The notes under the pieces are model-generated. The model was not told the DNA's origin, ran no database searches, and worked only from the letters and a program-made list of their open reading frames with translations. From contig CADCNT010000004.1 of assembly GCA_902802905.1 (NCBI GenBank), forward strand, positions 13,073 to 77,072: a stretch of 64,000 nucleotides of DNA, in the 5' to 3' direction. Position numbers and translations under genes: made by a program. Numbering within the stretch: the stretch's first letter is position 1; each line of letters begins with the position of its first letter. Source of the DNA: an uncultured Erysipelotrichaceae bacterium. GTDB lineage: Bacteria; Bacillota_I; Bacilli_A; RFN20; CAG-826. Shown piece by piece: positions 8,716-51,668 of this stretch.

Positions 8716-8717
8716 AA

Positions 8718-11576
8718 TTACACCTCTGTCAACACCGCAACCACTTTAATATATGGTTGTTTTTCAATTTCAATTGTGTCTGTATACCATTTTTCATATT
8801 CTTCGAATATTTCATCGATTTTATTCTTTTTTTGTCTGAGCAGCCTTGCTTTTGCACTCATGTTTGCATCATCAAACAAACCAACTTGTTCCACATCGAT
8901 TTCGTTGCTCAAGAAGTGCTTGTTATGAAGTTCTTCTAATCTATCCAAAAGATTGAGAAGGATTGGATTATTTTTATCTTTATATTCATCACATTTTGTA
9001 TCTAAAAGTTTTCTAACTTGAGCAATAGCATCACCCAAACTGGATGTACATGAAGATAAGATTTCTTTAGTAACAAGATTTTCATTTGGAATACTCATGT
9101 TATTTAATCTTGTGCTCTCGATGAGTTCTTTCATCGATAAAGCTTTTTCAAACTTATTATTTTTATAAACTAGACCAAACCATTCATCGATAACTGGCGT
9201 TGATTTTCTGTTGAACACAGTTCCAGAAACAATATAAATTGTTTTCTTGTCTCCACCATTTGATTTAAAACCTAAAACAGGGGCCTCTCCTCTTCCAAAC
9301 AACAAGCCTACTTTATCGTTAATCCAATTAAAGATTGGATGCAATTTCCACAAGTATTGAGCTGATGGCCAAGCATTTTCAGACAAATCATTTTGCATAC
9401 ATCTAGCCATCTCTTTCATTATGAAATTTTTATCTGGGCTCAATTTTAATTTGTCATCATCTGGCAACGATTCATCTGGAAGTGATGCTTTAAGCCTCTT
9501 TTTCATTTCATCAGAAAGCTTCAATTCAACGCCTTGAACCGTTGATAAATCCCTAACTAAATATCTATCTTCTTCTTGAAGTGTCCCGATTGCGTATTTT
9601 AAATAAGTTAAGTCTGTAAATAATGTTTCTTTTTCAACCACTTCGATTGGTTTAGAAGCTTCATCATCAGTTTGTTGCATCAATATCTCAAACGGATTGA
9701 ATTCTTCAGATGATGTGTCTAAAGTTTGGCCAAATTCTTCTGCGTCAGTTCCTTTTTCAATTGCAGCAGCAGTTTCCAATTCTTCTTCTTCGACATTAAA
9801 CTTGCCCATTAATAAAGCTGGGTCGCCAATGTTTTTATATGCTTGTTCTTCTTTTTGAATAAGAATATGCATAATACGAGTATCACCATTAATCTTTGAA
9901 TTGTTACTTTGAATAAGGAAATATCTAATATCTGGTTTAACTTTTTGTCCGTATCTATCGATTCTTCCGTTTCTTTGTTGAAAAACCATAAGTGACCACG
10001 GAATATCAAAGTGGATTAATCGATGGGACAAATAATGCAAGTTAATACCTTCAGAAGCAACATCGGAGGCCACCAAAATTCTAATTGGTGACTCTTTTCT
10101 TCCAAAATCATCAACAATCTTTTGTTGCTCAACATCTGACATTCCACCATACATTTCTTGAATAGAATTTGTAGGCATTTTTAGGTCTTTTCTAAGTTGA
10201 TTAGCAAGCCATTTCATTGTTTCTATACGTTCGGTAAAGATGACAATTCTGTCTTCTGTATTATTTTTATTCCAACCGTATTCTTTACTATTTAGCAAAG
10301 CTAGTAGTTCTTGATATCTTGAAAAATCTTCTGCTTTTATATCTTCAAGAAGAACTTTCAATTTTCTAAGTGTTTCGATATCGATAAAGTTGCCTTCGCC
10401 ATATTTAGCAACAAGCTTTTTAACTCTTTCATCAATGCTCTTAATACACGCTGCAGGAGATGAAAACATAGCCTTCTCTAAACTGGTCTTAAAAAGAGTT
10501 CCAATTCCTTGTGTTCCACCTTTATCCATTTCGAGCTTCATATCAGCAAAATAATCAAAGGCAAACTCCTCATACATTGATGCGTAACATTTTTGAATAC
10601 TAACTTCTCTATCTTTAAAAGAAGAGGCTAGTTGACTATTAACATCTTTTTTAAAACGTCTAATGCACAATCCTTTAATGTCTTCCTTTGTATAATGATG
10701 AATATCCGCGATTGCGGTTGGATCCAACATATTCATTAAGGAAGCAAAGCTTTCTGCTCTACCATCATGTGGAGTGGCAGATAGCAAAATCAAAGTATCG
10801 CTTCTTTTTGAAAGGAGCTGAGCTAGTTTAGCTCTTTGAGCTTGATGTTGACCACGCTCTGCAACATTATGAGCTTCATCGATAACAATAATGTCCCAAT
10901 ATGCTTGCTCTAAGTGTGTTCTATATTCAACGTCTCTCTTGAGAGTATCGATAGAAACGATTGTCTTGTCATAATAGAAAAACGGATTATAGTTTGATGG
11001 TAAATTGGCTCTGATTCTTTGAATCTTGTTTGAATCTAATCTGACTAAAGGTATCGAGAATCTGTTCCACATTTCCTTTTGGAACTGCATCATCATACTT
11101 TTAACAGTGACTACCAAGATTCTTTTGCCTTTGCCTCTAGCGATTAATTCGGACATCAAAATACCAGCTTCAAGCGTTTTACCTAAGCCAACCGAGTCAG
11201 CAATGAGTATTCTTTGTCTTGGGCTGCTAAGAGCCATGTTTGCTGGAACTAATTGATATTCCATTAAGTCCATCGCTGCTTTTTGCCCAATGCAAAGCTT
11301 AGAATCAGTAGGAATTTGTTGTCTTAAAGCAGATTCAATAAATAATTTAGATTTTCTAAAAGAAGGCGATGTATCCGCAATCAACTTTGTTTTAACTGGG
11401 TCCACTACGTCTATTTGTTCTAAATCTGAGAGAAAAATTGATTCTTTGTCTTTTACTAATGGTGATATTCCGATGCAATAGATGCTTTGTTGATTAAAAG
11501 AGTTTTTCTCGATTCTCTTTATCATCCATTCCTCATCTCTAATAATCACTCGTAAACCAGGAGCTAAATCTGCCAT
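8718..11576 (-). CDS. drmD: SNF2-family helicase, DISARM DrmD-like, 952 aa
   Basis: Motif I ILIADSVGLGKTLEAG, motif II VIVIDEAHNV and a C-terminal helicase domain (ILVASDVASEGINLHYL...QRNGRIDRYGQK) are present. It is the first gene of the SNF2 / methyltransferase / DExH operon. Confidence 0.8.
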   Translation of the reverse strand: MADLAPGLRVIIRDEEWMIKRIEKNSFNQQSIYCIGISPLVKDKESIFLSDLEQIDVVDPVKTKLIADTSPSFRKSKLFIESALRQQIPTDSKLCIGQKAAMDLMEYQLVPANMALSSPRQRILIADSVGLGKTLEAGILMSELIARGKGKRILVVTVKSMMMQFQKEMWNRFSIPLVRLDSNKIQRIRANLPSNYNPFFYYDKTIVSIDTLKRDVEYRTHLEQAYWDIIVIDEAHNVAERGQHQAQRAKLAQLLSKRSDTLILLSATPHDGRAESFASLMNMLDPTAIADIHHYTKEDIKGLCIRRFKKDVNSQLASSFKDREVSIQKCYASMYEEFAFDYFADMKLEMDKGGTQGIGTLFKTSLEKAMFSSPAACIKSIDERVKKLVAKYGEGNFIDIETLRKLKVLLEDIKAEDFSRYQELLALLNSKEYGWNKNNTEDRIVIFTERIETMKWLANQLRKDLKMPTNSIQEMYGGMSDVEQQKIVDDFGRKESPIRILVASDVASEGINLHYLSHRLIHFDIPWSLMVFQQRNGRIDRYGQKVKPDIRYFLIQSNNSKINGDTRIMHILIQKEEQAYKNIGDPALLMGKFNVEEEELETAAAIEKGTDAEEFGQTLDTSSEEFNPFEILMQQTDDEASKPIEVVEKETLFTDLTYLKYAIGTLQEEDRYLVRDLSTVQGVELKLSDEMKKRLKASLPDESLPDDDKLKLSPDKNFIMKEMARCMQNDLSENAWPSAQYLWKLHPIFNWINDKVGLLFGRGEAPVLGFKSNGGDKKTIYIVSGTVFNRKSTPVIDEWFGLVYKNNKFEKALSMKELIESTRLNNMSIPNENLVTKEILSSCTSSLGDAIAQVRKLLDTKCDEYKDKNNPILLNLLDRLEELHNKHFLSNEIDVEQVGLFDDANMSAKARLLRQKKNKIDEIFEEYEKWYTDTIEIEKQPYIKVVAVLTEV

Positions 11577-11667: not shown

Positions 11668-11700
11668 AAAAAACCTCTGATAAACAGAGGTCGTCTTTTG
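11668..11700 (-). terminator. Rho-independent terminator closing the satellite's minus-strand operon
   Basis: Stem CCTCTG / CAGAGG with loop ATAAA. On the minus strand it is followed by a run of six U. It lies just downstream of the 11722 gene end. Confidence 0.6.
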
Positions 11701-11721
11701 TCCTTAAAAACTATGCGCTTA

Positions 11722-11958
11722 TTAAAACACACCTAAGACATCAGAAACAGGTACAGTAACATTGACGTTGTCTCTAATCATAAGATGAACTTGGTCATCA
11801 TTAACATCGCCACCACTAACGTTTAATTTAACAAATGTTTCTTGGTATGGATGATCATCTAGCGAAATACTTAGGATTTCACCAACAATGATATGTTTGC
11901 CTTCTTCTCTGAGAACAGCCTTAACTTTAATACCTATTTTTAATTCGCTTGTCTTCAT
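11722..11958 (-). CDS. Small hypothetical protein (79 aa from an internal ATG with an AGGAGG RBS), last gene of the satellite operon
   Basis: The ORF is 11722..11988. ATG at 11958 is preceded by AGGAGG. There are no recognisable motifs. Confidence 0.5.
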   Translation of the reverse strand: MKTSELKIGIKVKAVLREEGKHIIVGEILSISLDDHPYQETFVKLNVSGGDVNDDQVHLMIRDNVNVTVPVSDVLGVF

Positions 11959-12056
11959 TTTTTTGATTCCTCCTAATACATACATCACTCATAAGAGTGA
12001 TAATATCAACACAATTCACAATATTTGACGTAACAAAAAATAGTGAGAAAACCCCA

Positions 12057-12623
12057 CTATCTTCTTCTACCTCCATGTTGATCCCACCACGTTCCATTAA
12101 GTAGGCTTTCCATTACGTCATCTCTTGGATTGTTATAACGGAAGTCAACCGATGAATTTTCCTTAACAATTTGGTAGATCTGGTTCCATGCACAGGTAGA
12201 TTGTTTCATAAAGTTTGAAGCCATATTAACGTATGGCGATTGAATTGGTCCTCCAGTAGTTGGATGCTTAGCAATTAAACCATATTTAGTTACTGCTTCT
12301 GCGCATTGAATATATCTAGCCTGTGATATTGCGTATTGTTCAATTAAATGAGTAGGAACTAGTTTTTCACATTTAACTCTAACCAACCATTTATATGTTT
12401 CTTCAAATAGTTCTTTAGCCGCAAATGTTGTTCCATCTCTTTGAGGAGCATAGAGATATTCTTTAATAGGTGGCATATCCACTGCTTGTAAATCTTCACC
12501 GATATCTATTTCGGTTAGTTTTCTTCCACCTGGATTACCATTTTCTAATTTTTCGATGTTGGATTTTTTCTTTCTGCCGGCTCCAACTCTTTTACCGCCA
12601 TGTAATGTAGAATTCATTGTCAT
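12057..12623 (-). CDS. terS: Phage terminase small subunit, P27 family
   Basis: The N-terminus is basic and Gly-rich (GGKRVGAGRKKK...GNPGGRKL). The core YAISQARYIQCAEAVTKYGLIAKHPTTGGPIQSPYVNMASNFMKQ matches the P27-family TerS pattern. Confidence 0.75.
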   Translation of the reverse strand: MTMNSTLHGGKRVGAGRKKKSNIEKLENGNPGGRKLTEIDIGEDLQAVDMPPIKEYLYAPQRDGTTFAAKELFEETYKWLVRVKCEKLVPTHLIEQYAISQARYIQCAEAVTKYGLIAKHPTTGGPIQSPYVNMASNFMKQSTCAWNQIYQIVKENSSVDFRYNNPRDDVMESLLNGTWWDQHGGRRR

Positions 12624-13019
12624 TTCTCCTTCAATCTTGATTTAGGGGTTATACCCAACTTGATTTCGCTTTTTTTGTGCGTGCAACCCCACGCCGGTGT
12701 CCATCTTTTTATTCGTAGAGATTTTGACCCCCCTACCCCTAATAAGTGTCTACTCACCTGTTCAAGCAAGGCCTCGATTAGAATTTCTAGAAATATCTTC
12801 AGTTTTCCAAAATTTCTGCCCCGCGTATTTCTGAGGTGCTGCCACCGATACTATCAAATACTAAGTATTTGCAGACCGGGGGGGAGTAAAAAGTAGCTGG
12901 ACTCACGGACTCACTGGACTGTTAATTTCTATAAAATCCTAAAACGCGTATTTAATTGTCTATACTGAATTAAAATTACGATTTGGATATTCTATATATT
13001 TTAGAGTCCAGTCAGTCCG
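12624..13019. other. Noncoding region that is GC-richer than its surroundings. Iteron-like GGACT(C/G)AC repeats in inverted arrangement flank an 80-bp AT-rich core. This is a putative replication origin or packaging region.
   Basis: G/C runs (GACCCCCCTACCCC, CCGGGGGGGAG) are unusual for this genome. GGACTCACGGACTCACTGGACTG at 12899-12921 is nearly inverted at 13003-13020 (GAGTCCAGTCAGTCC). There is no convincing ORF. The region lies immediately downstream of the primase/rep gene. Confidence 0.45.
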
Positions 13020-15377
13020 CTACTTCTTTTTTCTGATATAGACTGTTTGCTTTCCATATGGACCCATTGTCTTTCTTTTATCAGTCTTATCCCAGCCTTC
13101 TATCTGCATTAAGATAGCAGCGATGGCTCTACCTTCTTTACCATCAAAGTCACCTTTATCCTTATTGAAACACTCACAGAATATTTCCATAGGACTTGCT
13201 TCTTCTCTTTGATAGATAGCCGGACCAAATGGTTCTTTTGGTGTGTGATAACTATCAAACTCTTTATTGAAGTAATACCTTCTATCTTCAATGCTGAAGT
13301 CATCCCAGTTATCTGGAAGCATCTCTTCTAAATACTTTTCAACAATACCTACACGATCATCTTTTTCCATCGCGTTATTTTGGTATTGGGTAGCGATATC
13401 TAGATACTCACCACTTAGGAATAACTCTTCACCACTTTCATAGTAATGTTTAGCTTCCGCCCATAACTGGTCTTTGAAGTGCTTATCAAAATTGAAATTA
13501 GGAATAACGTTTGTGGAGTTAATCTTAATTACCCAGAATCTTCTATTACCAGTTAAGTCTCTGAGGTAACCTTGTTCGCCATTGACAGTGGCAAAGATAA
13601 TACAGCTTCTAGGATGCCATTCAACATGTTTTCCATAGGAGGCGCGATACTTATCATCGGTAGAAGAGATAAAAGCTTTTACCTTTTCAATGTCCGCTTT
13701 GCGCATACCCGCTAGTTCTTGAATTTCAATCACCCAGAAGCCTTGCACCTTCTCGCCTGCTTTCTTTGTATCTTCCATATCGGATAACTGTAATGAATCT
13801 GAGAAGAAGTCTGGATTCACTAATGATTTGATAATTGTTGATTTGCCAACACCTTGTTTGCCATCAAGGACAATGATGTTATCAAATTTAATACCAGGTT
13901 GATAGATTCTTGCTATAGCAGCAGCAAACCATTTTCTAGTTACTTCTTTTGTGTATGCATTATCATCCGCATCTAAATATTTAATAAATAATGTTTCTAC
14001 GCGTTTTACGCCATCCCACTTAGGCAAGTTATCTAGATAATCTTTAACAGGATTGAACGCTCTATCTTCAGTAACTTTTTTAAAGGCATTCTCGAAGTTT
14101 CTATCACTAAAGTCACAATAATGTTTAGCGATATAAATCTTTAATTGAGAGTCATCTGTGTCTCGCCAATACTTAGTGGATGTCGCTCTTGTCCAAGGCA
14201 CTTCTCCTCTAACTTCAGCGGTGTTAGCTAAAGTGTTATAGGCAATGTTTTTAAGCTTCTCATCGTTTTGAAGAATGATGACTAAGTTATTTACATCATT
14301 AGCAATAACACCATCATCGTTTTTAACTAGTTGTCTCATCCAATTTAGGTCGACATCATCATCGAAGTCTTTCTTGGCTTCTTCGATTCTTTCATCAGAG
14401 ATAAGTGTTTTAACTTTTTCATCACTTCTAGCATATTCCACCATCTTTTTAAAGGAAGGCTTATCATCGCCAAATAAATGGATTCTTACTAGATTAAATG
14501 AATTAAGAGTTTGTCCCGCTGCTGGGTCATTAGCGTGATGCGAATAAAAGAATTTATCATCATAATTGATTGCGCCCGCTACTGAGGATGATGGGATATA
14601 GTGATATCTATTGCCGCCAACCTCTTCATAAATATTAGATAAGAAAGTATCAATTGCTTCACTAATTGAGTAGGCTCTACAGAAAGCTCCTACTATTCCA
14701 TCTTTCTCAAGCGGATCAGCTTGTTTTCTACCAACTGAACCACTATTGACGTGAGTCTCTTTTTCTTTCTTTGGAAGAGTTGTTAAATCACTCCAATTAG
14801 GGTATTTAGAAAGAAAAGAGTCAGGATTTAGAGGGGTTTTCTCTATTTTTTCATAAATATAGATTCCATCGTAAGGCGTACTTGGCCAATACATTAATTG
14901 ATTAGTTTGAAAGCTAACTGGGTCCACTTGTTCTATGCCTAATTCAGAAGCAAGCAATCTAGAAATAGCGACATATTCATCACCTTCAACATCTCTAGTT
15001 AAAGGAATAATAATTCTGTATCTAGGTGAATCTGGTCTATGCCCGTGAGTTGAATATAAGCAACACGTGTATTCGAAGTCTCTTTTAAACTTATCGATGA
15101 AGCCTAGTTCAGCATCATCAAGGTCTAAAGTGACCATACTTCTATATTCCACATTGTTTTTAAGCCTTTGAGGACTACTAAGTTTGCCGCCTACAAAACC
15201 GCCATGATCTTTAGCTTCTTGTTTTTGGTCTTTTACAAAGTGTTTATAATCCTCCACTGTTTCGGAGGTATATATTGTTTTAGAAAGCTTTTCACATAAC
15301 TGTTCCCATGTTACTTTCTTATTGGTCCACTTCTTGCTATTGACTCTTTGCCCAATAGCGATAATTAAATCTCTCAT
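13020..15377 (-). CDS. Primase/replication protein with a VirE-family C-terminal P-loop domain, 785 aa
   Basis: The P-loop is IIVLDGKQGVGKSTIIKSL. VirE-like segments NRRFWVIKI and YRASYGKHVEWHPRSCIIFATVN are present. The N-terminal domain is primase-like. Its start overlaps the upstream gene (ATGA). Confidence 0.8.
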   Translation of the reverse strand: MRDLIIAIGQRVNSKKWTNKKVTWEQLCEKLSKTIYTSETVEDYKHFVKDQKQEAKDHGGFVGGKLSSPQRLKNNVEYRSMVTLDLDDAELGFIDKFKRDFEYTCCLYSTHGHRPDSPRYRIIIPLTRDVEGDEYVAISRLLASELGIEQVDPVSFQTNQLMYWPSTPYDGIYIYEKIEKTPLNPDSFLSKYPNWSDLTTLPKKEKETHVNSGSVGRKQADPLEKDGIVGAFCRAYSISEAIDTFLSNIYEEVGGNRYHYIPSSSVAGAINYDDKFFYSHHANDPAAGQTLNSFNLVRIHLFGDDKPSFKKMVEYARSDEKVKTLISDERIEEAKKDFDDDVDLNWMRQLVKNDDGVIANDVNNLVIILQNDEKLKNIAYNTLANTAEVRGEVPWTRATSTKYWRDTDDSQLKIYIAKHYCDFSDRNFENAFKKVTEDRAFNPVKDYLDNLPKWDGVKRVETLFIKYLDADDNAYTKEVTRKWFAAAIARIYQPGIKFDNIIVLDGKQGVGKSTIIKSLVNPDFFSDSLQLSDMEDTKKAGEKVQGFWVIEIQELAGMRKADIEKVKAFISSTDDKYRASYGKHVEWHPRSCIIFATVNGEQGYLRDLTGNRRFWVIKINSTNVIPNFNFDKHFKDQLWAEAKHYYESGEELFLSGEYLDIATQYQNNAMEKDDRVGIVEKYLEEMLPDNWDDFSIEDRRYYFNKEFDSYHTPKEPFGPAIYQREEASPMEIFCECFNKDKGDFDGKEGRAIAAILMQIEGWDKTDKRKTMGPYGKQTVYIRKKK

Positions 15378-15892
15378 GGATTTTCATCCTCCTCGTCTTT
15401 ATTAGATTCTTCGTCCGCTCCAATAAATCGAGCGGCGTTCACCCATTCTTCTGGCTCATTCTTTTTCTCCATTATTTCAATCATGAATTTCTTTGGATCA
15501 AAGTCTTTACCAAACTTCATAATGAGGATGTACTTAATTACTTCAAAATCAGGTGGATAGTATTTTTCATCTTCAGTGACTTTAGTTTCTGTTCCACCGA
15601 TAGGATTCTTTCTCATTGTTTTGGATGTTGTTTTCTCTTTATGACCCATAGCTTTGGTCTTTAAAGCAGAGAATAAATCCTGAAGTAATAAAGCTTCTCC
15701 ATCAGATATGGCTTGTTGAATTTCTGGGTGTTTATCTTTTAGGGCGATAAAGGTTTGTTCACTTATACCCAAGTCATGACACATGTCTTTTTGTGTGTAG
15801 AAAGTAGCTGAAGCCGCTTTGATATAATCAAGCTTTGACTTTAGCACACCTGTTCTTTCCCACATTTGATATGTATCTTCTTTCCTACGCAT
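15374..15892 (-). CDS. Hypothetical protein with a putative HTH (DMCHDLGISEQTFIALKDKHPE) and an acidic C-terminus
   Basis: The ORF is 15374..15898. ATG at 15892 has a GAGGTG RBS. It is translationally coupled to the primase. Confidence 0.6.
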   Translation of the reverse strand: MRRKEDTYQMWERTGVLKSKLDYIKAASATFYTQKDMCHDLGISEQTFIALKDKHPEIQQAISDGEALLLQDLFSALKTKAMGHKEKTTSKTMRKNPIGGTETKVTEDEKYYPPDFEVIKYILIMKFGKDFDPKKFMIEIMEKKNEPEEWVNAARFIGADEESNKDEEDENP

Positions 15893-16017
15893 AAGCACCT
15901 CACAAAATGGAGAGAGGCACCTTAGTGGTTAGTGGCTATGTTTGTTAAAGTGCCACTCTCCAAATTAGATGATAAATCATCTAATCCAGTATCGCCTAGG
16001 TGATAGATAGGTGCTAT

Positions 16018-16452
16018 TTAATCAATTGGCTCTTGGCCTTCATATAAAGTACCATTATGGCGAGAGCATCTAAGGACATTAACAATGAAGTCTAATCCTC
16101 TGATTATCGTGCTTAATTCACAGTCACCACCAAGGATGATTTCAACACCACCGTTACCGCTATTTTCTATTGGCTTAACCCTAATATCAGTACAACTAGC
16201 ATCTTCAATGCGAATATATGTACGTCCTCCGTGCCCGCTATCCCCACCTTCATAGCCAGTAGTTCCAGCAGTAACTTCAAGGAAATTAGCACTAACAATG
16301 TGTTTCTTAAATATTGGAAATTCTGATCTATCAACTTTAATTGTTGAATAAGATACTTCATCAGGTTCTTCAATGTCGTGTTTCCACTCATCACCGAATT
16401 TTAATTTGAAGTATTCTTTTGGTAATTCAATAAATGGATATTCATTTTTCAT
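16018..16452 (-). CDS. Hypothetical protein
   Basis: The ORF is 16018..16461. There is a GGAG RBS for ATG at 16452. It has no recognised motifs. Confidence 0.55.
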   Translation of the reverse strand: MKNEYPFIELPKEYFKLKFGDEWKHDIEEPDEVSYSTIKVDRSEFPIFKKHIVSANFLEVTAGTTGYEGGDSGHGGRTYIRIEDASCTDIRVKPIENSGNGGVEIILGGDCELSTIIRGLDFIVNVLRCSRHNGTLYEGQEPID

Positions 16453-16467
16453 AGCTATCATTCTCCA

Positions 16468-16782
16468 TTAATGTTGTTCAGGGTACTTGAGTTTTAAATA
16501 CTCATCGTGCCAATAAAAGATTAAGTCAGCTAGTGCTGGAGCGATTTCTTTGTACCAAATAACATCTTCTGGTACATGGGTTTTTAGATAGTCATTAAGC
16601 ATATCAATATCTGCTTCAAATACTTCTTCAACCTTTCTACTAACATAGCAAGCAAATGATTCAATCCATGTGAATGCTGAATAAGCTTCTGGATAATTAT
16701 CATCATTTATTTCAGGATATTTTAGGCGAAAGAATCTGTAAGCTTGATCAAGGATATCGAATTCAATTTTTGTTTTTTTCAT
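16468..16782 (-). CDS. Hypothetical protein (104 aa from ATG 16782 with an AAGGAG RBS)
   Basis: ORF 16468..16806. The internal start at 16782 has a good RBS. Confidence 0.55.
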   Translation of the reverse strand: MKKTKIEFDILDQAYRFFRLKYPEINDDNYPEAYSAFTWIESFACYVSRKVEEVFEADIDMLNDYLKTHVPEDVIWYKEIAPALADLIFYWHDEYLKLKYPEQH

Positions 16783-16922
16783 AAATAAAGTTCTCCTTGA
16801 GCCCAAAAAGGACTCTAACTATTTAGCGAGAGCCCTAAATATTAATAATGATTTATGCACGTCTTCTAATGTGGATATGAAATAGGCACGCATCAATTAA
16901 TAAATAGAGCTTTCGCTTCTTT

Positions 16923-17177
16923 TTAAGACTCGTCATCATCACTTATTAACGATTCTTGATAAGCAATTTCCTCTTTCCAGATGACTTCAATAGGAATGTC
17001 TAGAGCAATGGCTAGTGAGTTTAGCGTCCTAAACTGAATCGCACTACCGATAACACCATTTTCTATGCGGTTATAATGTTGATGACAAACGCCCATATCT
17101 AGAGCAACGCGATATTGTGAATAACCAAGTTTTTGTCTTGCATTCACTAAGTACATTCTTATCGGGTGGTACTTCAT
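16923..17177 (-). CDS. Cro-like XRE-family HTH regulator, 84 aa
   Basis: HTH motif LGYSQYRVALDMGVCHQHYNRIENG. It is divergent from the cI-like gene. Confidence 0.75.
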   Translation of the reverse strand: MKYHPIRMYLVNARQKLGYSQYRVALDMGVCHQHYNRIENGVIGSAIQFRTLNSLAIALDIPIEVIWKEEIAYQESLISDDDES

Positions 17178-17445
17178 ATCGTTTGCTCCTTTCTATGTGT
17201 TTTTTCACATCAACTCTTGGTATGGAGATCCACTTGCATTTAGTTGCGAGTTTGACTCCTGACCACAACACAAGAATATCGCATCGTTTGATAAAAAACA
17301 GGCCTTTTCAACACTCTAAAGTCACTTGCAACTATGTTGAAACAAACAGCCATTTTTCTATTTTGTTTTTTGATTTGCGCAACCATTTATTAACATTTGA
17401 ATTAAAGTCCTATTATCTTAGCAACTAAAGTGCTAATATGAGTTC
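17178..17445. promoter_or_regulatory. Divergent promoter/operator region of the satellite lysogeny switch
   Basis: An extended -10 (TGCTAATAT, 17433-17441) ends 4 nt before the cI-like ATG, which implies a leaderless mRNA. A near-palindrome TTGCAACTATGTTGAAA lies within the region. Confidence 0.5.
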
Positions 17446-18225
17446 ATGAAATTCACCGAAAAAATGGAAAAACGATACAAAATCGGCCAATGTATCGCAA
17501 GTTACAGAGATTTAGCTAATGAGACTCAACAAGATTTAGCCAAGCTTCTTAGAGTAAGCAGACAATATATTTCGAATATTGAAAGTGGAATATCGAATCT
17601 TCCATTAGATAAAGCGAAAATTATTGCTGACCACTATCACATTCCCGTTTCGAGACTTCTTGGAGACGAAAGCGCCAGTCCCTCTGAATCGCTTCAAATG
17701 ACTGTTTATAAGGAAGCTAGTAGGATGGAGCCAGTTGGAATGGCTATTGTTGTATCGAGACATTATTTAGAAAAACAAAAATATAAAAATAGGAAAAAAG
17801 AGATGGTAGATAAGACATACCGCCTCGATAATAATGTCTTTGGTTTAGTTAGTGATGATTTATACGCTATTGAAATATCTAATAGCAGCAAAACATTGAA
17901 CGTTCCTGCTGGTTCAAAAGCTATTGTTCATAAAATAACTAACGAAAGCCAAAAACCTGATTTTAAAAAGCCCACACTGGTTGTATTGCGTTGGTTAGGA
18001 ACAGCAGAAGCTCCAGAAGAACTTGGGATTGCTTATGAAAAATATGTTAAGGAACATCCTGTAGAGAATATTTTTATATCTTTAGTTGATCCCACAAAGA
18101 AAGCAAAATACAATGGGCAAACCTTAATTCAATACACGATGGCTAATGAAACTTTGTTCGCAACTATAGATGAATTAAAGGAAATGTGCGTGGGCATAGT
18201 CAAAAAGGTCGTTATTGATTATTAG
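17446..18225 (+). CDS. cI/Stl-like repressor, with an N-terminal XRE HTH and a C-terminal domain of unknown type, 259 aa
   Basis: HTH motif TQQDLAKLLRVSRQYISNIESG. It is divergent from the Cro-like gene and upstream of the integrase. Confidence 0.75.
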   Translation: MKFTEKMEKRYKIGQCIASYRDLANETQQDLAKLLRVSRQYISNIESGISNLPLDKAKIIADHYHIPVSRLLGDESASPSESLQMTVYKEASRMEPVGMAIVVSRHYLEKQKYKNRKKEMVDKTYRLDNNVFGLVSDDLYAIEISNSSKTLNVPAGSKAIVHKITNESQKPDFKKPTLVVLRWLGTAEAPEELGIAYEKYVKEHPVENIFISLVDPTKKAKYNGQTLIQYTMANETLFATIDELKEMCVGIVKKVVIDY

Positions 18226-18340
18226 CATATTCTCATCACCTATTATCAAATTGTCTCCTCAAATATACTAAGGACGGATATGAAATAGGGACCATCTTGG
18301 TCAAACGTCTTCTTGGTGCAATCACCGAGGAGACTTTTTT

Positions 18341-18511
18341 ATGTTAGCAATTTCAAAAGATGTGGAAGTCACGTTCATGCGTGCTATCCTTAAATATTTT
18401 TATACGCAAAAGCTGCTTACAGAAATTGAATATATACGTATCATAGACGACCTCGAGTCAGGTAATAAATACGTTGATAATAATACAGGAAAGAGTGATG
18501 TATATGTGTAG
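18341..18511 (+). CDS. Small ORF (56 aa) between the repressor and integrase, possibly co-transcribed with int
   Basis: ATG at 18341 is preceded by GAGGAG 8 nt upstream. The TAG stop overlaps the RBS of int. Sequence begins MLAISKDVEVTFMRAILKYFYTQKLLTEIEYIRIIDDLESGNKYV... Confidence 0.4.
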   Translation: MLAISKDVEVTFMRAILKYFYTQKLLTEIEYIRIIDDLESGNKYVDNNTGKSDVYV

Positions 18512-18525
18512 GAGGTTATTCATAT

Positions 18526-20268
18526 ATGAATAAAGTATCAATTATAGCCCCTACAAAAGCTGACGGAATATTCCAAAGAAGCTTAGCTGAACTCAAGGTA
18601 AAGCGTGTAGCGGCTTATGCTCGTGTTAGTACAGAAAGTGACGAGCAAGCAAACTCATTCGAAAACCAAGTTGAAGAATGGACAAGAAGGATCTTAGAAA
18701 ATCCAAATTACAAGCTAGTTAAGATCTATGCAGATGAAGGTATTTCTGGTACTTCAATACGAGGTAGAGAAGGATTCCAGGAAATGATTAGCGATGCCAA
18801 AGCAGGAAAGATTGACTTGATATTAGTTAAATCAATTTCCAGATTCGCAAGAAACACAGTCTTAACAATTCAAACTATTAGAGAACTTAAAGAGTGTGGA
18901 GTCGAAGTATATTTTGATAACGAGAACATTTGGACCTTTGACCCAAAAACAGAATTTATGCTTTCAATCATCAGTATGATGGCTCAAGAGGAGAGCAGAC
19001 ATATTTCTGAAAACGTTACTTGGACTTTCAGAAAGATGATGAACGAAGGTAAAACCTTCATCGCTTCTTCTAATTTCTTGGGTTATGACTATGACAAAGA
19101 GAAAGAAGGGCTAGTCATCAATAAAGAACAGGCACCTATCGTTAAACTTATATACGACTTATACGATCAAGGCGTTGGAACATTAGAAATATGTAGGACT
19201 CTAAAAGCCAGAGGATATAAAACTGTCACTGGCAAAGAAGACTGGCACGCAAGCACTGTTATAGGCATTTTAAAGAACGAAAAATATGTCGGCGACTTGT
19301 TGCTTCAAAAAACATATACGGTTGATTATTTGACCCATAAGAGAAGAGATAACACCGGTCAAAGGCAAAAGTATTATGTTAGAGATGCTCATGAGGCTAT
19401 TATCCCTAGAGATCAATGGGAAAGAGTCCAGGTCAAAGTGAACAACCAAGCTTTAAAGGCAATGGGTGGTCACAGGGATCTAAACCGTTATAACGTCAGG
19501 TATCCTTTGAGTGGAACGCTTATCTGTTTAGAGTGCGGAGAAACATATAAAAGAAGACACTGGTACAACGGTTATGAAGATATCGGCGGAAAGATAATGT
19601 ACCAATGCGGCGGATACGTGTATGACTATAAAAACGAAAAACACTGCAAAGTTTCTCATGGAATTAGCGAGAATCTACTCCACCACACTATTGCTGATGC
19701 CATCAACAATGTTTATTTGAAAGATAAAAGTGTCTTTAGAAAGATTTCCACTCTTATCAGAAAGGGATTATCTGTTACCTCTATAGACGAAAACATTAAT
19801 GCTAAACAAGAAGAAAAAGAGAAGATTAGCAAAGACATAGACTTTATCTTAAAAGAAAGGATGAATGCTGGTCGTACCGATATCAAAGAAAAGCTTGATA
19901 GCCAGTACGCAGAATTAGTTCAACAATATCAACGCATTTGTAGTGAAATCAAAACTCTTCAAGATAGAGAAAGAGATAACCTTGACTCTGAATCTAGATT
20001 AAACAAGATGTTGTCTATCCTGGACGGAAAACAAATCACAGCGGATATGATTACGTTAGATTTATTAGAGGCCTTTATATACCGAATTATTGTTGTTGAT
20101 AGAAAAAACATCGTCATCACAATTAACGCATTTAATTCACTTTCGCTTGAAGACCTAAGAGCTCAGAGAAAAGAGGTTGTTAAAAGAGAGCCTCTATACG
20201 AAGGAAAAGTTAGAATTAAAAACCCAAAAAGATGGGCTGAACTAAATTACAAAGTTGTGCTTGTTTAA
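18526..20268 (+). CDS. int: Large serine recombinase (integrase), 580 aa
   Basis: The resolvase N-terminal domain has the catalytic Ser region (AAYARVSTESDEQANSFENQ). A recombinase domain and a Cys-rich zinc ribbon (CLECGETYKRRHW...C) follow. A C-terminal coiled coil is present. The RBS is AGGAGG. Confidence 0.9.
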   Translation: MNKVSIIAPTKADGIFQRSLAELKVKRVAAYARVSTESDEQANSFENQVEEWTRRILENPNYKLVKIYADEGISGTSIRGREGFQEMISDAKAGKIDLILVKSISRFARNTVLTIQTIRELKECGVEVYFDNENIWTFDPKTEFMLSIISMMAQEESRHISENVTWTFRKMMNEGKTFIASSNFLGYDYDKEKEGLVINKEQAPIVKLIYDLYDQGVGTLEICRTLKARGYKTVTGKEDWHASTVIGILKNEKYVGDLLLQKTYTVDYLTHKRRDNTGQRQKYYVRDAHEAIIPRDQWERVQVKVNNQALKAMGGHRDLNRYNVRYPLSGTLICLECGETYKRRHWYNGYEDIGGKIMYQCGGYVYDYKNEKHCKVSHGISENLLHHTIADAINNVYLKDKSVFRKISTLIRKGLSVTSIDENINAKQEEKEKISKDIDFILKERMNAGRTDIKEKLDSQYAELVQQYQRICSEIKTLQDRERDNLDSESRLNKMLSILDGKQITADMITLDLLEAFIYRIIVVDRKNIVITINAFNSLSLEDLRAQRKEVVKREPLYEGKVRIKNPKRWAELNYKVVLV

Positions 20269-20271
20269 TAG

Positions 20272-20325
20272 AAAAAAAGGCCACATATCCCCGTTATTTT
20301 GAGGAAAAGTGGTCTTTTCTTTTTA
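20272..20325 (+). terminator. Putative terminator after int
   Basis: GGCCAC ... GTGGTC with one G-U pair and a large loop, followed by TTTTCTTTTT. Confidence 0.35.
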
Positions 20326-20502
20326 GTCTTTTTTAGGTAAGCATGCAACGATAATTAAACCAATTAGTCCGAGGAATAAACCTCCAAAAAACCATCCAGC
20401 TACACTTCGATTTTTATAACCAGCAATTATTGGGCAAGCAATCATACTTATAACAGTATTAATAATTCCAAGAACAGTAAATACAGGAGAAATTTCAATC
20501 AT
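20323..20502 (-). CDS. Small hydrophobic peptide (59 aa, 2 predicted TM segments)
   Basis: The translation is MIEISPVFTVLGIINTVISMIACPIIAGYKNRSVAGWFFGGLFLGLIGLIIVACLPKKD. A GGTAGGG RBS-like sequence lies upstream. It sits 79 nt downstream of gene E on the same strand. It is absent from the ORF track because it is shorter than 60 aa. Confidence 0.4.
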   Translation of the reverse strand: MIEISPVFTVLGIINTVISMIACPIIAGYKNRSVAGWFFGGLFLGLIGLIIVACLPKKD

Positions 20503-20581: not shown

Positions 20582-21139
20582 TTAATCACCATTAATAAAA
20601 ATATAATCTTCTGCCACTACTTCCTCTCGAGAGATTGATAAATTGAAATAGTCTTCTTCTTTTGTGTAACGGTCTGTAATGAAATGAAGCTTTTTATTCT
20701 TTGAGCCAAGCAATATTCTGTCTCTATCAATTTGATTTTCCAAGAACGGACCATCAATCAACAAATCAACGGAATTGACAAGTTCTTCGTCTAAAGAATC
20801 TTTGGTTTTTCCAGAAAACATAATAATGCCCAATCCAAGCTCATGTATTCTTGAGTTGAAGTGTTTTAAACCAACCTGTAAAGAAGGTTCTCCTCCTGTA
20901 AGAGTGATACCTTCTATTTTATATTTATCTTTAGCTATTAAAACGATGTTTAGCAACTCGTCTTCTGTAACTATGTGATTTGGCTTGAGGGCTTGCAAAT
21001 CTGGGTTCCCACATCCTTTACAATTGATATTGCATCCTTGAAACCAAATGCAGCACCTATTGAAAGGGCCTTCTATTTTAGTTAGAAGTTTAATATAAGC
21101 AACATTGAACTTAATCATTGAATTCAAATTCGAATCCAT
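20582..21139 (-). CDS. NrdG-type radical-SAM activating enzyme (anaerobic ribonucleotide reductase activase family), 185 aa
   Basis: The radical-SAM cluster is CCIWFQGCNINCKGC (Cx3Cx2C). The SAM motif is GITLTGGEPS. The C-terminal VDLLIDGPFLENQIDRDRILLGSKNKKLHF matches the layout of E. coli NrdG (…SGCVHECPGCYN…GISLSGGDPL…VLVDGKF…RGSSNQ…). No nrdD is nearby. Confidence 0.75.
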   Translation of the reverse strand: MDSNLNSMIKFNVAYIKLLTKIEGPFNRCCIWFQGCNINCKGCGNPDLQALKPNHIVTEDELLNIVLIAKDKYKIEGITLTGGEPSLQVGLKHFNSRIHELGLGIIMFSGKTKDSLDEELVNSVDLLIDGPFLENQIDRDRILLGSKNKKLHFITDRYTKEEDYFNLSISREEVVAEDYIFINGD

Positions 21140-22934
21140 TCTTACCTACTTTAGTAACAAGCTTGCTGCCTTTTAAAGAACGTAAATCATCTTTGTTTTC
21201 AAACAAGAACATGGCAAGCGGATCTAACAATCTATCATTAATAGCGTTGAGAATGTCTCTACCACCCTTAGAAGAATCAACTCCTTTAAGGATATATTCA
21301 ATCGAATCTAGTTCTTTTTCAAATTCTAATTCGAGCTTATATTTTTCTTCAATTCCCTTAATGACTGGCTTGAGTTTAGACTTGCAAATCTTAACTTGGA
21401 AGTCTCTGTCTTGAATAAAATTAAATGGAACGATGTTGTTATAACCAATACGGCCTAAAAGTTCAGGTCTCTTTAATTCATTGTCAAAGTAGTCCTTAAC
21501 AATCTTAATAAATTCTTTAGCAACGCCTTCCTTATCAGTGCTTGCGGCAACTTGATTTGCTCCTAAGTTAGAAGTAAAGACGATGATTGTATCGCTGAAA
21601 TATACTGTTTCGCCTTTAGAATCTGTCAAACGACCATCTTCTAATATTTGTAAAAAGATATCTAGGATTCTAGGATTTGGTTTCGCGGCTTTTTCAATTT
21701 CATCAAATAAAACAACACTGAATGGATGTTCTTTGATTGCATTAGTTAATTGGCCACCTTCTTCATATCCAACATAACCTGGAGCGGCACCAATTAATTT
21801 TTGGTCACTATTCTCTTGAGCATATTCAGACATATCAAAGCGGATACATGCTTGGTCATCACCGAATAAGAATTCTGCTAGTGCTTTTGATAATTCTGTT
21901 TTACCAACACCAGTTGGACCAACAAAGAAGAATACTCCTTTTGGCATTGATCTAGATGATTTCTTGTGGAGACCAGTTAAGCCCATGTAGGCTTTGATAA
22001 CAGTTTTTTCGATTTTCTCAATGGCTTCTTCTTGTCCAACGACACGTTCGGATAATTTCTTTTTAATGTTTTTAACACTAGCTTGGTCTAACTTTTCCCA
22101 AGGATTATCTTTTTCGCCGTATTTGAAGAGATAGAACAATTTGTCAAAGGACATTTTTTCTTCTTTTCTGGACAAACGAGATAATTGAATAATCTCTCTA
22201 TTTGTAAAGTCTTCGAGCATATCGATATATTGAGAATTGTCATTATCCAATAAAGAACTTGTTCCACTAGCAAGACGCACTTCAAATGAGTCTTCAATCT
22301 TCTGAATCATCGCTCTTCTTTCTAATCTATCTGGTTTTTGTAAGGTAACTATTTCTACTTCTGGGTTCCCTTGATAGAAAGATAATGGTAATCCGGATGC
22401 TTTATTAAGAATTATGACAACAACACTCTCGTTGCAATCAGAATTAAGGTAATCAACTTTTCTATCCTTAAGCGCTTTTCCTAATAAAGTAATATTTTGT
22501 CTTTCATCATCTGAAAGCCCATTCACGCTGAATAAATATTCAGACCAGTTAATAATGAAAGCTACTTTCTTTTTCTTATCTATGACGTTCTTATAAACAA
22601 CATTAAGTATTTCAGCTGGGCTTTTGAATAATCCTTGTTGAGATTTTGGATTTTTATCTTCTTCCTCATCTTCAAAATCATAGCTATCGCCTTCAACTTC
22701 AACTTCGTCTGTTAAAGTTAGCTTATCAATAGCGCCTGTTGCACCTTCAACACGATCCCAATAAACGATGTCAGGATAATCCATATCTTTAAACATCGCT
22801 TCTAGATATTCTCTTAAAGTGACGATCTTGTTTTTTTCATCAAGATAAACATCGCCGACATTGCCATCAATCATGACACACTTCTTGATACCGGCGCTTC
22901 TTCTGATTTTGTTAAAACTATTTTGTAAAGACAT
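21111..22934 (-). CDS. Novel N-terminal domain (about 300 aa) fused to a Clp/ClpB D2-type AAA+ ATPase, 607 aa
   Basis: The D2 module runs RVVGQEEAI...GVFFFVGPTGVGKTELSKALAEFLFGDDQACIRFDMSEY...IGAAPGYVGYEEGGQLTNAI...VVLFDEIEKA...LLGRI. The AGGAGG RBS is 8 nt upstream. The gene overlaps gene E by 29 nt. Confidence 0.8.
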   Translation of the reverse strand: MSLQNSFNKIRRSAGIKKCVMIDGNVGDVYLDEKNKIVTLREYLEAMFKDMDYPDIVYWDRVEGATGAIDKLTLTDEVEVEGDSYDFEDEEEDKNPKSQQGLFKSPAEILNVVYKNVIDKKKKVAFIINWSEYLFSVNGLSDDERQNITLLGKALKDRKVDYLNSDCNESVVVIILNKASGLPLSFYQGNPEVEIVTLQKPDRLERRAMIQKIEDSFEVRLASGTSSLLDNDNSQYIDMLEDFTNREIIQLSRLSRKEEKMSFDKLFYLFKYGEKDNPWEKLDQASVKNIKKKLSERVVGQEEAIEKIEKTVIKAYMGLTGLHKKSSRSMPKGVFFFVGPTGVGKTELSKALAEFLFGDDQACIRFDMSEYAQENSDQKLIGAAPGYVGYEEGGQLTNAIKEHPFSVVLFDEIEKAAKPNPRILDIFLQILEDGRLTDSKGETVYFSDTIIVFTSNLGANQVAASTDKEGVAKEFIKIVKDYFDNELKRPELLGRIGYNNIVPFNFIQDRDFQVKICKSKLKPVIKGIEEKYKLELEFEKELDSIEYILKGVDSSKGGRDILNAINDRLLDPLAMFLFENKDDLRSLKGSKLVTKVGKNGFEFEFND

Positions 22935-22946
22935 GTTGTTATCCTC

Positions 22947-51515: not shown

Positions 51516-51668
51516 ACAAATTTATCGGCAAACCCGGAGTAATCCGGCGACGCAAAGCTAAAGGGTCCAGAAATGGATAGCCAGTTGCACACATCGATAT
51601 CTATGTGTTTTAAGTAGGTATCTTAGTGTATTTGCGTCGGTCGAAGAAAGGACCGACTTTTAATTTAT
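51516..51668 (+). ncRNA. c-di-GMP-I (GEMM) riboswitch with a terminator-type expression platform
   Basis: Aptamer GGCAAACC-[CCGGA GUAA UCCGG]-CGACGCAAAGC-UAAAGGGUCCAGAAAUGGAUAGCC (51527-51585). It carries the diagnostic GCAAACC and GACGCAAAGC motifs and a GNRA-capped P2. A hairpin GTCGGTC-GAAGAAAG-GACCGAC plus a U-tract (51637-51668) follows. It lies ahead of a GGDEF gene. Confidence 0.6.

What the first reader, a model, noticed from the sequence alone, without database searches (positions are those of the whole stretch)
11668..20325. PICI-like phage satellite: serine integrase, cI/Cro switch, VirE primase, P27 TerS, no structural genes
The 8.6-kb module has the canonical PICI architecture. 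The integrase and repressor are transcribed one way, and the Cro-like gene and replication/packaging genes the other way. There is a leaderless cI-like gene. A VirE-type primase is followed by an iteron-bearing noncoding region. TerS is near the distal end, followed by a terminator. There are no capsid, tail, portal or TerL genes, so mobilisation needs a helper phage. Use of a large serine recombinase rather than a tyrosine integrase is less common for described PICIs.
Basis: partly seen in the sequence, partly recalled or inferred. Interest (0 to 1): 0.6.

Follow-up and report, generated by a model that had tools for sequence, protein, structure and literature searches.

The report
PICI-like phage satellite with defence flanks
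This 8.5-kb block looks like an intact phage satellite of a known kind: it can integrate, regulate and copy itself and mark its DNA for packaging, but it has no virion genes and must borrow them from a helper phage. It is a new family in uncultured gut and digester bacteria, and different anti-phage defence systems sit against both of its ends.

Summary
Window 11722-20268 holds a large serine integrase, a divergent cI-like/Cro-like switch, a VapE-type primase-helicase, an origin with inverted iterons around an AT-rich spacer, a P27-family TerS and a small conserved ORF (orf88). PHROGs found no capsid, portal, TerL, tail or lysis gene in the ORFs scanned between 11.7 and 44 kb.

New evidence:
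- A near-identical copy (L093; Int 98%, TerS 99%, primase 98%) lies between unrelated flanking genes. Homology stops exactly at the stop codons of Int and orf88, which defines an 8,547-bp core.
- Relatives with 65-80% identical primases in other Bacilli MAGs keep the same structural-gene-free layout. Core genes have dN/dS of 0.01-0.2.
- A roughly 100-nt non-coding block just upstream of TerS matches the HNH-terS intergenic region of a large phage lineage (Heliusvirales-like and Streptococcus Javan phages). This is a cos-like site, present here without HNH or TerL.
- Iterons co-vary with the primase, and the repressor exists as three alleles in otherwise near-identical cores.
- Both core edges abut defence systems that differ between copies.

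The att sites, an empty site, excision and the helper were not found. Verdict: a new member of a known kind, of moderate interest.

The parts
11672..11692 (-). Intrinsic terminator after orf88. It is not shared with the near-identical core in L093, so it lies outside the conserved core.
   Evidence: 8-bp stem followed by a T-run; homology to L093 ends at the orf88 stop codon.
11722..11955 (-). orf88 (77 aa from MKTSEL): a small SH3/Tudor-like beta-barrel of unknown function. It is always the last core gene after TerS.
   Evidence: Conserved after TerS in L003, L006, L029 and L093. Only 13 relatives among 1.84 billion cluster representatives. AlphaFold2 pLDDT 90, with no informative PDB match. 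dN/dS 0.44 against L006.
12057..12623 (-). Terminase small subunit, P27 family.
   Evidence: PF05119 above its cutoff and phrog_83 at E 6e-29. It is 48-53% identical to the TerS of HNH-cos type phages. dN/dS 0.16-0.21.
12640..12743 (-). cos-like conserved non-coding block immediately upstream of TerS.
   Evidence: 73-77% identical to the HNH-terS intergenic DNA of PV036458, PV036439, PV036423 and Javan102-type phages. Its 17-mer core occurs in 80 analysed IMG/VR contigs: 62 have a TerS homologue 150-235 nt downstream, and most have an HNH gene ending 6-27 nt upstream. There is no RNA structure signal. In L006 the block is kept although TerS is lost.
12778..12872 (-). Second conserved non-coding block, containing the palindrome CAAATACTTAGTATTTG. 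Its role is unknown; it may be a regulatory site of the packaging operon.
   Evidence: Conserved in L004, L006, L016 and L027-L029.
12897..13019 (-). Replication origin: two inverted sets of GGACTSA-type iterons flanking a 74-nt spacer that is 78% AT.
   Evidence: The iteron sequence changes with the primase in relatives (GGAACA in L002 and L004, GGACAG/GGACAA in L003) while the AT-rich core is kept.
13020..15377 (-). Primase-helicase (N-terminal primase, C-terminal VapE/D5-type helicase with a Walker A motif).
   Evidence: PDB 7pds (vapE-like) at E 5e-67. Best phage relatives are 43-49% identical. dN/dS 0.04-0.10.
15374..15898 (-). orf174: a conserved protein translationally coupled to the primase. 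It is probably DNA-binding and matches part of a PHROG annotated as TerS.
   Evidence: phrog_309 at E 3e-16. 70-96% identical across relatives. dN/dS 0.13. The start codon is uncertain; gene callers give 153-172 aa.
16018..16461 (-). orf147, function unknown, under very strong constraint.
   Evidence: No family hit. 99-100% identical in L027 and L093, with dS 0.5 and dN/dS 0.012.
16468..16806 (-). orf112, function unknown.
   Evidence: No family hit. Homologues in L003, L005 and L027.
16923..17177 (-). Cro-like HTH regulator, the first gene of the leftward operon.
   Evidence: HTH_3 at E 1.6e-8. 79-98% identical in relatives.
17178..17445 (.). Divergent promoter/operator region with three GCAACTA-type repeats and the extended -10 TGcTAATAT 6 nt before the cI ATG.
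   Evidence: L093 has different operators (GCGCAACCAAA) together with a different cI allele.
17446..18225 (+). cI/Stl-like master repressor: an N-terminal HTH and a C-terminal domain that is not a detectable S24 peptidase.
   Evidence: There are three alleles (21-49% identical) in cores that are otherwise 92-98% identical. No serine is invariant in the C-terminal domain. A PDB profile search gives only HTH hits plus a weak match to SaPIbov1 Stl 'Orf20' at E 0.017.
18307..18334 (+). Strong terminator between cI and orf56-int.
   Evidence: 12-bp stem followed by a T-run.
18341..18511 (+). orf56: a small conserved ORF just upstream of int. It may be a directionality or regulatory factor; its function is unknown.
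   Evidence: 88% identical in L093. Small ORFs in the same position are called in L016, L017, L092, L094 and L095. A similar motif is seen in L002.
18526..20268 (+). Large serine recombinase (integrase).
   Evidence: Relatives carry other serine recombinases, sometimes two in tandem, at the same place. Homology to L093 ends at its stop codon.
20269..20502 (-). Hairpin after int plus orf59 (a small membrane protein). Whether these belong to the element is uncertain.
   Evidence: Shared with L092 (Int 81%), where an ADP-ribosylglycohydrolase gene is inserted between them. Absent from L093.

Best explanation
The region is an integrated phage satellite of the PICI type, derived from a lineage of temperate phages that package DNA with an HNH endonuclease and a cos site.

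Shown by sequence: the 8.5-kb core encodes its own large serine integrase, a divergent repressor/Cro switch, a primase-helicase with a cognate iteron origin, a P27-family TerS, and a cos-like site homologous to the HNH-terS intergenic element of those phages. It lacks HNH, TerL, portal, capsid, tail and lysis genes.

Inferred mechanism:
1. The HTH repressor keeps the leftward operon silent. Its C-terminal domain lacks a conserved catalytic serine and exists as several alleles.
2. A helper-phage protein, rather than SOS autocleavage, relieves repression.
3. The serine integrase excises the element. The directionality factor is either orf56, another small ORF, or supplied by the helper.
4. The primase-helicase fires the iteron origin and produces concatemers.
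5. The satellite TerS binds next to its own cos-like site and recruits the helper's TerL and HNH, so satellite DNA is packaged into helper-made virions.

The core's two edges are hot spots that hold different anti-phage defence systems in different copies. Here these are a DISARM-like system after orf88 and a helicase/AAA/radical-SAM system after int. They are either carried as cargo or co-mobilised from next to the element.
For: - Gene content and order.
- No virion or lysis genes in the module or in the ORFs scanned out to about 49 kb. No structural-gene domain in the genes called beyond the window's left edge (Pfam hits on record).
- The same structural-gene-free architecture occurs in relatives with 65-80% identical primases in five other MAG lineages, and in 92-98% identical copies from other samples.
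- dN/dS is 0.01-0.2 for the primase, TerS, orf174, orf147, orf112 and cro.
- The origin has two iteron sets around an AT-rich spacer, as described for PICI origins (PMC6092414). The iterons co-vary with the primase.
- The cos-like block is homologous to the HNH-terS intergenic DNA of phages that carry the same TerS and primase families.
- Placement of cos between HNH and terS is established for HK97 and phi12/phiSLT-type phages (own knowledge; the Quiles-Puchalt 2014 reference is listed in PMC5052747).
- L093 carries the same core between unrelated flanks, which shows the core behaves as a discrete transferable module.
- The repressor shows allelic diversity and no conserved serine nucleophile.
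- Defence genes next to PICI and prophage ends, and between int and att, are a known pattern (PMC10085698, PMC12829572).
Against: - No att sites, empty site or circular junction were found.
- No helper prophage was identified for this host.
- No capsid-remodelling or packaging-interference gene was recognised.
- Some relatives have lost TerS (L016 by an IS-linked break, L006 by replacement with a Schlafen-like gene, and L005), so packaging genes are not universally retained.
- Homology to L093 stops at the stop codons with no shared flanking arm. This is not what is expected if the att sites sat at the core edges.
- The cos assignment rests on position and conservation, not on mapped DNA ends. 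Contig ends near the block are not at a fixed position.
Confidence: 0.74

Rival explanations
1. It is a defective prophage remnant. A Heliusvirales-like prophage lost everything downstream of terS, plus the HNH region, by deletion. What remains is immobile and decaying.
For: The primase, TerS and cos-like block are all homologous (43-53% aa) to one phage lineage, in which they appear in the same order. Some relatives have IS insertions or have lost TerS.
Against: The same two 'deletions' are shared by divergent lineages (L003, L029, L093) whose primases are 77-98% identical. Strong purifying selection acts on all core genes, including TerS. The same core occurs between unrelated flanks. No fragment of a structural gene is present.
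Confidence: 0.1
2. It is an integrative defence island mobilised by a serine recombinase and carrying a phage-derived replication module (SCC-like). It moves without packaging of its own, and TerS and the cos-like block are vestigial or serve another role.
For: Serine recombinases 53-55% identical to this one, with the same small upstream ORF, sit beside defence clusters with no satellite genes within 10 kb (L094, L096, L097). Tandem recombinase pairs occur in L006, L027, L029 and L030. Defence systems abut both edges in every copy examined.
Against: TerS is under purifying selection (dN/dS 0.16-0.21). The cos-like block is more conserved than the coding DNA and is kept even where TerS is lost. 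The cI/Cro switch and the iteron origin are phage- or satellite-like. No relaxase or transfer gene is present in the core.
Confidence: 0.1
3. The 8.5-kb core is the whole mobile element. It has inserted independently into pre-existing chromosomal defence islands, and the flanks are not cargo.
For: Homology between the window and L093 is limited to the core. The six-gene block to the right occurs elsewhere without this satellite (L072, L073, L081). Defence islands are known to sit next to PICI att sites (PMC12829572).
Against: A 98% identical site-specific integrase would be expected to use the same site, yet both flanks are unrelated. No conserved arm sequence lies outside the stop codons. L092 shows a gene inserted between the int terminator and orf59, which behaves like a cargo hot spot.
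Confidence: 0.3

Closest known systems
Gram-positive PICIs / SaPIs (e.g. SaPI1, SaPIbov1)
   Same: The order int, repressor, divergent cro-like gene, primase-replicase, origin with two iteron sets around an AT-rich core, then terS near the far end. No virion or lysis genes. A small core. Accessory and defence genes at the ends. A repressor without an SOS-cleavage domain that varies between otherwise similar islands.
   Different: It has a large serine integrase instead of a tyrosine integrase. TerS is of the P27/cos-HNH type rather than the pac type. No cpmAB, ppi or pti homologues were detected. The host is an uncultured Bacilli/'Tenericutes' lineage. The only sequence similarity to SaPI proteins is a weak Stl match (E 0.017).
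cos-type SaPIs (SaPIbov4, SaPIbov5)
   Same: It carries a phage-like cos region and would depend on the TerL and HNH of a cos helper phage (PMC5052747).
   Different: SaPIbov5 has lost a functional terS and encodes a capsid-homologue size-redirection protein (Ccm). This element keeps an intact, selected TerS, and no capsid homologue was found.
Vibrio cholerae PLEs
   Same: They are satellites that integrate with a large serine recombinase, and their excision factor is supplied by the helper phage (PMC6002521). This is a possible model for the missing directionality factor here.
   Different: There is no other shared gene content or layout. PLEs parasitise a lytic myovirus and lack a cI/Cro switch.
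Heliusvirales-like and related temperate phages (Erysipelothrix phi1605, Gardnerella vB_Gva_AB1, PV036458, Streptococcus Javan102/630)
   Same: The primase-helicase (43-49% aa), TerS (45-53% aa) and the non-coding block upstream of terS are homologous and in the same order.
   Different: The phages are 47-90 kb. They carry HNH directly before the block and TerL, portal, protease, capsid, tail and lysis genes after it. None of these is present here.
SCC elements of staphylococci
   Same: They have large serine recombinases (in pairs in some relatives of this element) and a self-loading helicase related to satellite replicases. This comparison rests on my own knowledge and was not tested here.
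   Different: SCC elements have no cI/Cro switch, TerS or cos-like site.

Membership tests
PICI (criteria of PMC6092414 and PMC10085698) | Integrase at one end | tested here: met
   A 580-aa large serine recombinase with an intact catalytic motif. It is a serine rather than a tyrosine recombinase, which SatelliteFinder accepts as exchangeable (PMC10085698).
PICI (criteria of PMC6092414 and PMC10085698) | Regulatory module: a master repressor divergent from a cro/alpA-like gene | tested here: met
   Divergent HTH_3 genes at 16923-17177 (-) and 17446-18225 (+) with repeated operator-like sites.
PICI (criteria of PMC6092414 and PMC10085698) | Primase-replicase with an adjacent origin made of two iteron sets flanking an AT-rich region | tested here: met
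   Iterons co-vary with the primase in relatives.
PICI (criteria of PMC6092414 and PMC10085698) | Small terminase or another packaging-redirection function | tested here: met
   P27-family TerS under purifying selection, plus a cos-like block.
PICI (criteria of PMC6092414 and PMC10085698) | Capsid-morphogenesis or interference gene | tested here: inconclusive
   Pfam and PHROGs recognised none. orf88, orf112 and orf147 are of unknown function, and orf88 has a generic beta-barrel fold. This feature is optional: most non-E. coli PICIs lack it (PMC10085698).
PICI (criteria of PMC6092414 and PMC10085698) | Absence of phage structural and lysis genes | tested here: met
   and Pfam hits on record for genes left of the window. 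Relatives also lack them.
PICI (criteria of PMC6092414 and PMC10085698) | Size of about 8-15 kb | tested here: inconclusive
   The conserved core is 8,547 bp. The true ends are unknown and the unit may include flanking defence genes.
PICI (criteria of PMC6092414 and PMC10085698) | A specific att site not used by prophages | tested here: inconclusive
   No att site or empty site was found.
PICI (criteria of PMC6092414 and PMC10085698) | Helper-phage-dependent induction, packaging into phage-like particles, high-frequency transfer and interference | not testable with these tools
   These need induction and transduction experiments or VLP sequencing.
cos-type SaPI (SaPIbov5-like) | A cos site nearly identical to that of the helper, no functional terS, and a Ccm capsid homologue | tested here: not met
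   The cos-like block is only 73-77% identical to known phages. TerS is intact. There is no capsid homologue.
PLE | PLE core genes (repA, nixI, tcaP and others) in Vibrio, with ICP1 as helper | not tested
   Only the class of integrase is shared. No PLE-specific comparison was run.
Intact temperate phage of the HNH-cos lineage | HNH, TerL, portal, protease/capsid, tail and lysis genes | tested here: not met
   They are absent here and present in true members such as L072.

The most novel reading that the evidence does not exclude
The mobile unit may not be the 8.5-kb core but a phage-sized element of at least about 43 kb, in which the space normally taken by virion genes is filled with defence systems. 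These would be the DISARM-like arm after orf88 and the helicase/AAA/radical-SAM arm after int.

Because cos packaging needs a near-genome-length unit, such a satellite would fit unmodified helper capsids (helper relatives are 47-75 kb) without any capsid-remodelling gene. It would move whole defence islands in a single event.
Probability: 0.15. Interest if true: 0.65.

Novelty: new member of a known kind. Interest (0 to 1): 0.36.

Why it matters
It extends PICI-type satellites to an uncultured Bacilli/'Tenericutes' group from digesters, sewage and guts. It also points to a very widespread gut phage lineage (Heliusvirales-like, HNH-cos packaging) as the likely helper pool. No satellite is mentioned in the Heliusvirales paper I checked (PMC11283538).

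It gives a clean natural example of three things:
- defence-system turnover exactly at the two edges of a satellite core;
- repressor allele swapping;
- a conserved candidate cos element of about 100 nt that could be used to find both helpers and satellites in metagenomes.

None of this overturns current understanding.

Tried and rejected
- **Empty site, att sites or circular junction.** Exact-protein look-ups of the radical-SAM protein, TerS, DrmMI, Int and the host TMEM164 gene all returned the occupied arrangement. Repeat searches across the module gave only chance-level matches.
- **Nearby copies in known records.** Megablast of the module against GenBank phages and PLSDB plasmids found nothing.
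- **Structured RNA between the origin and TerS.** Rfam gave no credible hit (best E 0.12, far below threshold), the folding z-score was -0.46, and there was no covariation. I rejected this in favour of a DNA site.
- **cos ends from contig termini.** Contigs end at variable distances from the conserved block, so this gives no evidence.
- **S24/LexA-type repressor.** There is no Pfam or PDB match to the peptidase domain, and no serine is invariant in the C-terminal domain.
- **orf88 function.** Its fold is a generic Tudor/SH3-like barrel and is uninformative.
- **Conjugative or mobilisable element.** No relaxase or transfer gene is present in the core.
- **Assembly breaks near 33.8 kb.** Contigs from other assemblies break there, but they are colinear with the window, so this is not an island boundary.

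Full report
**What is there.** On the minus strand, running leftward from the switch region:
- a Cro-like HTH gene (16923-17177);
- orf112, orf147 and orf174;
- a 785-aa primase-helicase (13020-15377; VapE-like domain E 1.4e-73; phrog_256 E 1e-277; C-terminal half matches PDB 7pds at E 5e-67);
- 396 bp of non-coding DNA;
- a P27-family TerS (12057-12623; PF05119 above its cutoff; phrog_83 E 6e-29);
- orf88, then an intrinsic terminator (11672-11692).

On the plus strand:
- a 259-aa cI-like HTH repressor (17446-18225) and a strong terminator;
- a 56-aa ORF;
- a 580-aa large serine recombinase (18526-20268) with the RVST catalytic motif and a zinc-ribbon CxxC.

An extended -10 (TGcTAATAT) ends 6 nt before the cI ATG and there is no Shine-Dalgarno sequence. 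A leaderless transcript is therefore plausible but unproven. The near-identical core in L093 has a different cI allele with an ordinary ribosome-binding site.

**Origin.** Directly after the primase stop lies GGACTGACTGGACTC, then a 74-nt spacer that is 78% AT, then CAGTCCAGTGAGTCCGTGAGTCCAG. Five of the 39 GGACT/AGTCC pentamers of the whole window fall in these 136 bp. In relatives the repeat unit changes with the primase (GGAACA in L002 and L004, GGACAG/GGACAA in L003), while the arrangement and the AT-rich core are kept. Two iteron sets around an AT-rich melting region is the organisation described for PICI origins (PMC6092414).

**Packaging signal.** The roughly 100 nt just upstream of TerS (12640-12743) are more conserved than the coding sequence among relatives.
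- They match the HNH-terS intergenic DNA of phages PV036458 (Ca. Heliusvirales), PV036439, PV036423 and the Streptococcus Javan102 group at 73-77% identity.
- The 17-mer GGTCAAAATCTCYACGA from this block matched 90 IMG/VR stretches, of which 80 listed contigs were analysed. In 62 a TerS homologue starts 150-235 nt downstream on the same strand, and 12 of the remainder simply run out of sequence. Most of the 80 have an HNH gene ending 6-27 nt upstream.
- Rfam, folding energy and covariation give no support for an RNA.
- In HK97-like and phi12/phiSLT-like phages the cos site lies between HNH and terS (own knowledge; the Quiles-Puchalt 2014 reference is listed in PMC5052747). On that basis I read the block as a cos-type site.

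The satellite has the block and TerS but neither HNH nor TerL. L006 has lost TerS but kept the block.

**Is it a remnant?** Five lines of evidence argue against a random deletion product.
1. The primase and TerS have their best phage relatives in the same phages: phi1605, vB_Gva_AB1, Heliusvirales records and Javan630, at 43-53% aa identity. The element therefore descends from, or exchanges with, that lineage.
2. The reduced layout recurs in MAGs whose primases are 65-80% identical (L002-L006), and in 92-98% identical copies from other samples (L016, L017, L027-L030, L093). None has structural genes next to it.
3. dN/dS is 0.035-0.10 for the primase, 0.16-0.21 for TerS, 0.13 for orf174, 0.012 for orf147 and 0.08 for orf112.
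4. PHROGs found no virion or lysis gene in the ORFs scanned between 11.7 and 44 kb, and Pfam found none in those scanned out to 49 kb. ORFs beyond about 49 kb were not scanned.
5. The called genes beyond the left edge carry helicase, methylase, UvrD, Macro and ADP-ribosylglycohydrolase domains, not structural ones.

**Limits of the unit.** L093 carries Int at 98%, TerS at 99%, primase at 98% and orf147 at 100% identity, but cI at only 49%.
- Nucleotide homology to the window runs from 11750 to 20267. Hand alignment extends it to the two stop codons (11722 and 20268), and nothing is shared beyond them.
- Outside the core, L093 has DarT/DarG after int and unrelated genes after orf88.
- L092 (Int 81%) keeps the post-int hairpin and orf59, but has an ADP-ribosylglycohydrolase gene inserted between them.
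- L016 breaks at 12803 with an IS, followed by a Schlafen-type helicase.

This defines an 8,547-bp conserved core whose two edges are replacement hot spots. No att site, empty site or circular junction was recovered. A 98% identical site-specific integrase sits between wholly different flanks, and no conserved arm lies outside the stop codons. For these two reasons I think it more likely than not that at least some flanking genes travel with the element. This is an inference.

**Flanks.**
- Left of the core is a DISARM class-1-like system: DrmD 8718-11576, DrmMI 3940-8715, and a fused 2100-aa DrmA/B protein that runs off the window. UvrD, Macro and ADP-ribosylglycohydrolase genes follow.
- Right of the core are orf59 and a block of an MkoA-like helicase, two unknown proteins, a ClpB-like AAA and a radical-SAM protein (20582-30674).
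- That block is conserved at about 71% nt identity elsewhere. At the same end it abuts a complete HNH-TerS-TerL-portal prophage (L072), another serine recombinase followed by host genes (L073), or host genes directly (L081).
- Relatives of the satellite carry other systems at their edges: an SMODS-like nucleotidyltransferase (recognised by motif only) in L002, Thoeris in L003, and Schlafen, a type ISP restriction-modification system and Wadjet in L006.
- Defence genes at PICI ends, and next to PICI att sites, are a described pattern (PMC10085698, PMC12829572).

**Regulation.** Three repressor alleles, 21-49% identical to each other, occur in otherwise near-identical cores, each with matching changes in the operator region. 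Their shared C-terminal domain has no invariant serine and no match to S24 peptidases. A PDB profile search gives HTH hits plus a weak match to SaPIbov1 Stl (E 0.017). This fits a repressor released by a helper protein rather than by SOS cleavage. That conclusion is an inference.

**Comparison and verdict.** The element meets the sequence-testable PICI criteria. Capsid remodelling or interference genes, true size and att site are inconclusive, and the phenotypic criteria are untestable here. It differs from SaPIs in using a serine integrase and a P27/cos-type packaging module. It differs from cos-SaPIs in keeping TerS and lacking a capsid homologue. It shares only the class of integrase with PLEs. 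I file it as a new member of a known kind, of moderate interest.

The most novel reading still open is a phage-sized, cos-packaged satellite whose arms are defence systems. I put its probability at about 0.15.

Noticed in passing
window 20582-30674 (-), with orf59 at 20323-20502: A five-gene block: an MkoA-like SF1 helicase (1503 aa), two unknown proteins (714 and 360 aa), a ClpB-like AAA_2 ATPase (PADLOC PDC-M37B) and a small radical-SAM protein. It is conserved as a unit at about 71% nt identity in other metagenomes, where a sixth gene (RNase III-like in L073) follows. Its radical-SAM end always abuts an MGE or a synteny break. It is a candidate defence system.
   Followed up: partly
window 1-11576 (-) and beyond the left edge (L024): A DISARM class-1-like system: DrmD (SNF2), DrmMI (Eco57I-type methylase, 1591 aa) and a fused 2100-aa DrmA/DrmB (DEAD helicase plus MZB/DUF1998) cut by the window start. 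UvrD-like, Macro and ADP-ribosylglycohydrolase genes follow.
   Followed up: partly
window 12640-12743, and L101-L177: The roughly 100-nt non-coding element between HNH and terS is conserved across many viral contigs of very different GC content. It has three boxes: GGGCGGTCAAAATCTCTACGA, AACGGCGCGGGGT and CAAAnnGGGTATTAA. It has no Rfam family and could serve as a marker for this packaging type.
   Followed up: partly
window 12778-12872: A second conserved non-coding block between the origin and the cos-like block. It contains the palindrome CAAATACTTAGTATTTG. It is present in most relatives but not in L003. Its function is unknown.
   Followed up: no
P0005, P0011 (relatives of orf88): The orf88 domain recurs nine times in a 3791-aa protein that has a type IX secretion C-terminal signal, and three times in a 1060-aa protein. 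Otherwise the family has only 13 representatives among 1.84 billion clusters.
   Followed up: partly
L094, L096, L097: Serine recombinases 53-55% identical to this integrase lie next to other defence clusters (methylase/HATPase/Z1/AIPR in L094; DUF2357/AAA/helicase/PP2C/kinase in L096 and L097), and no satellite genes are called in the sequence retrieved (up to 10 kb on each side). L094 also has the small upstream ORF. The int module seems to be shared by more than one kind of island.
   Followed up: partly
L016 10653-11890; L001 2510-2639: An IS3-type insertion sequence (rve transposase) sits at the position equivalent to window 12803, between the origin and TerS, in L016. L001 loses similarity to the window at the same position. 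In L016 a Schlafen-type helicase follows instead of TerS.
   Followed up: partly
window 51517-51592 (+): A c-di-GMP-I riboswitch (53.5 bits, E 1e-7) lies upstream of the ORF at 51669-53159.
   Followed up: no
L006 3327-6697; L027 651-3966; L029 3973-6472: Close relatives carry two tandem large serine recombinases instead of one. In L029 the pair lies after orf88, on the same strand as the packaging genes, rather than next to cI.
   Followed up: no
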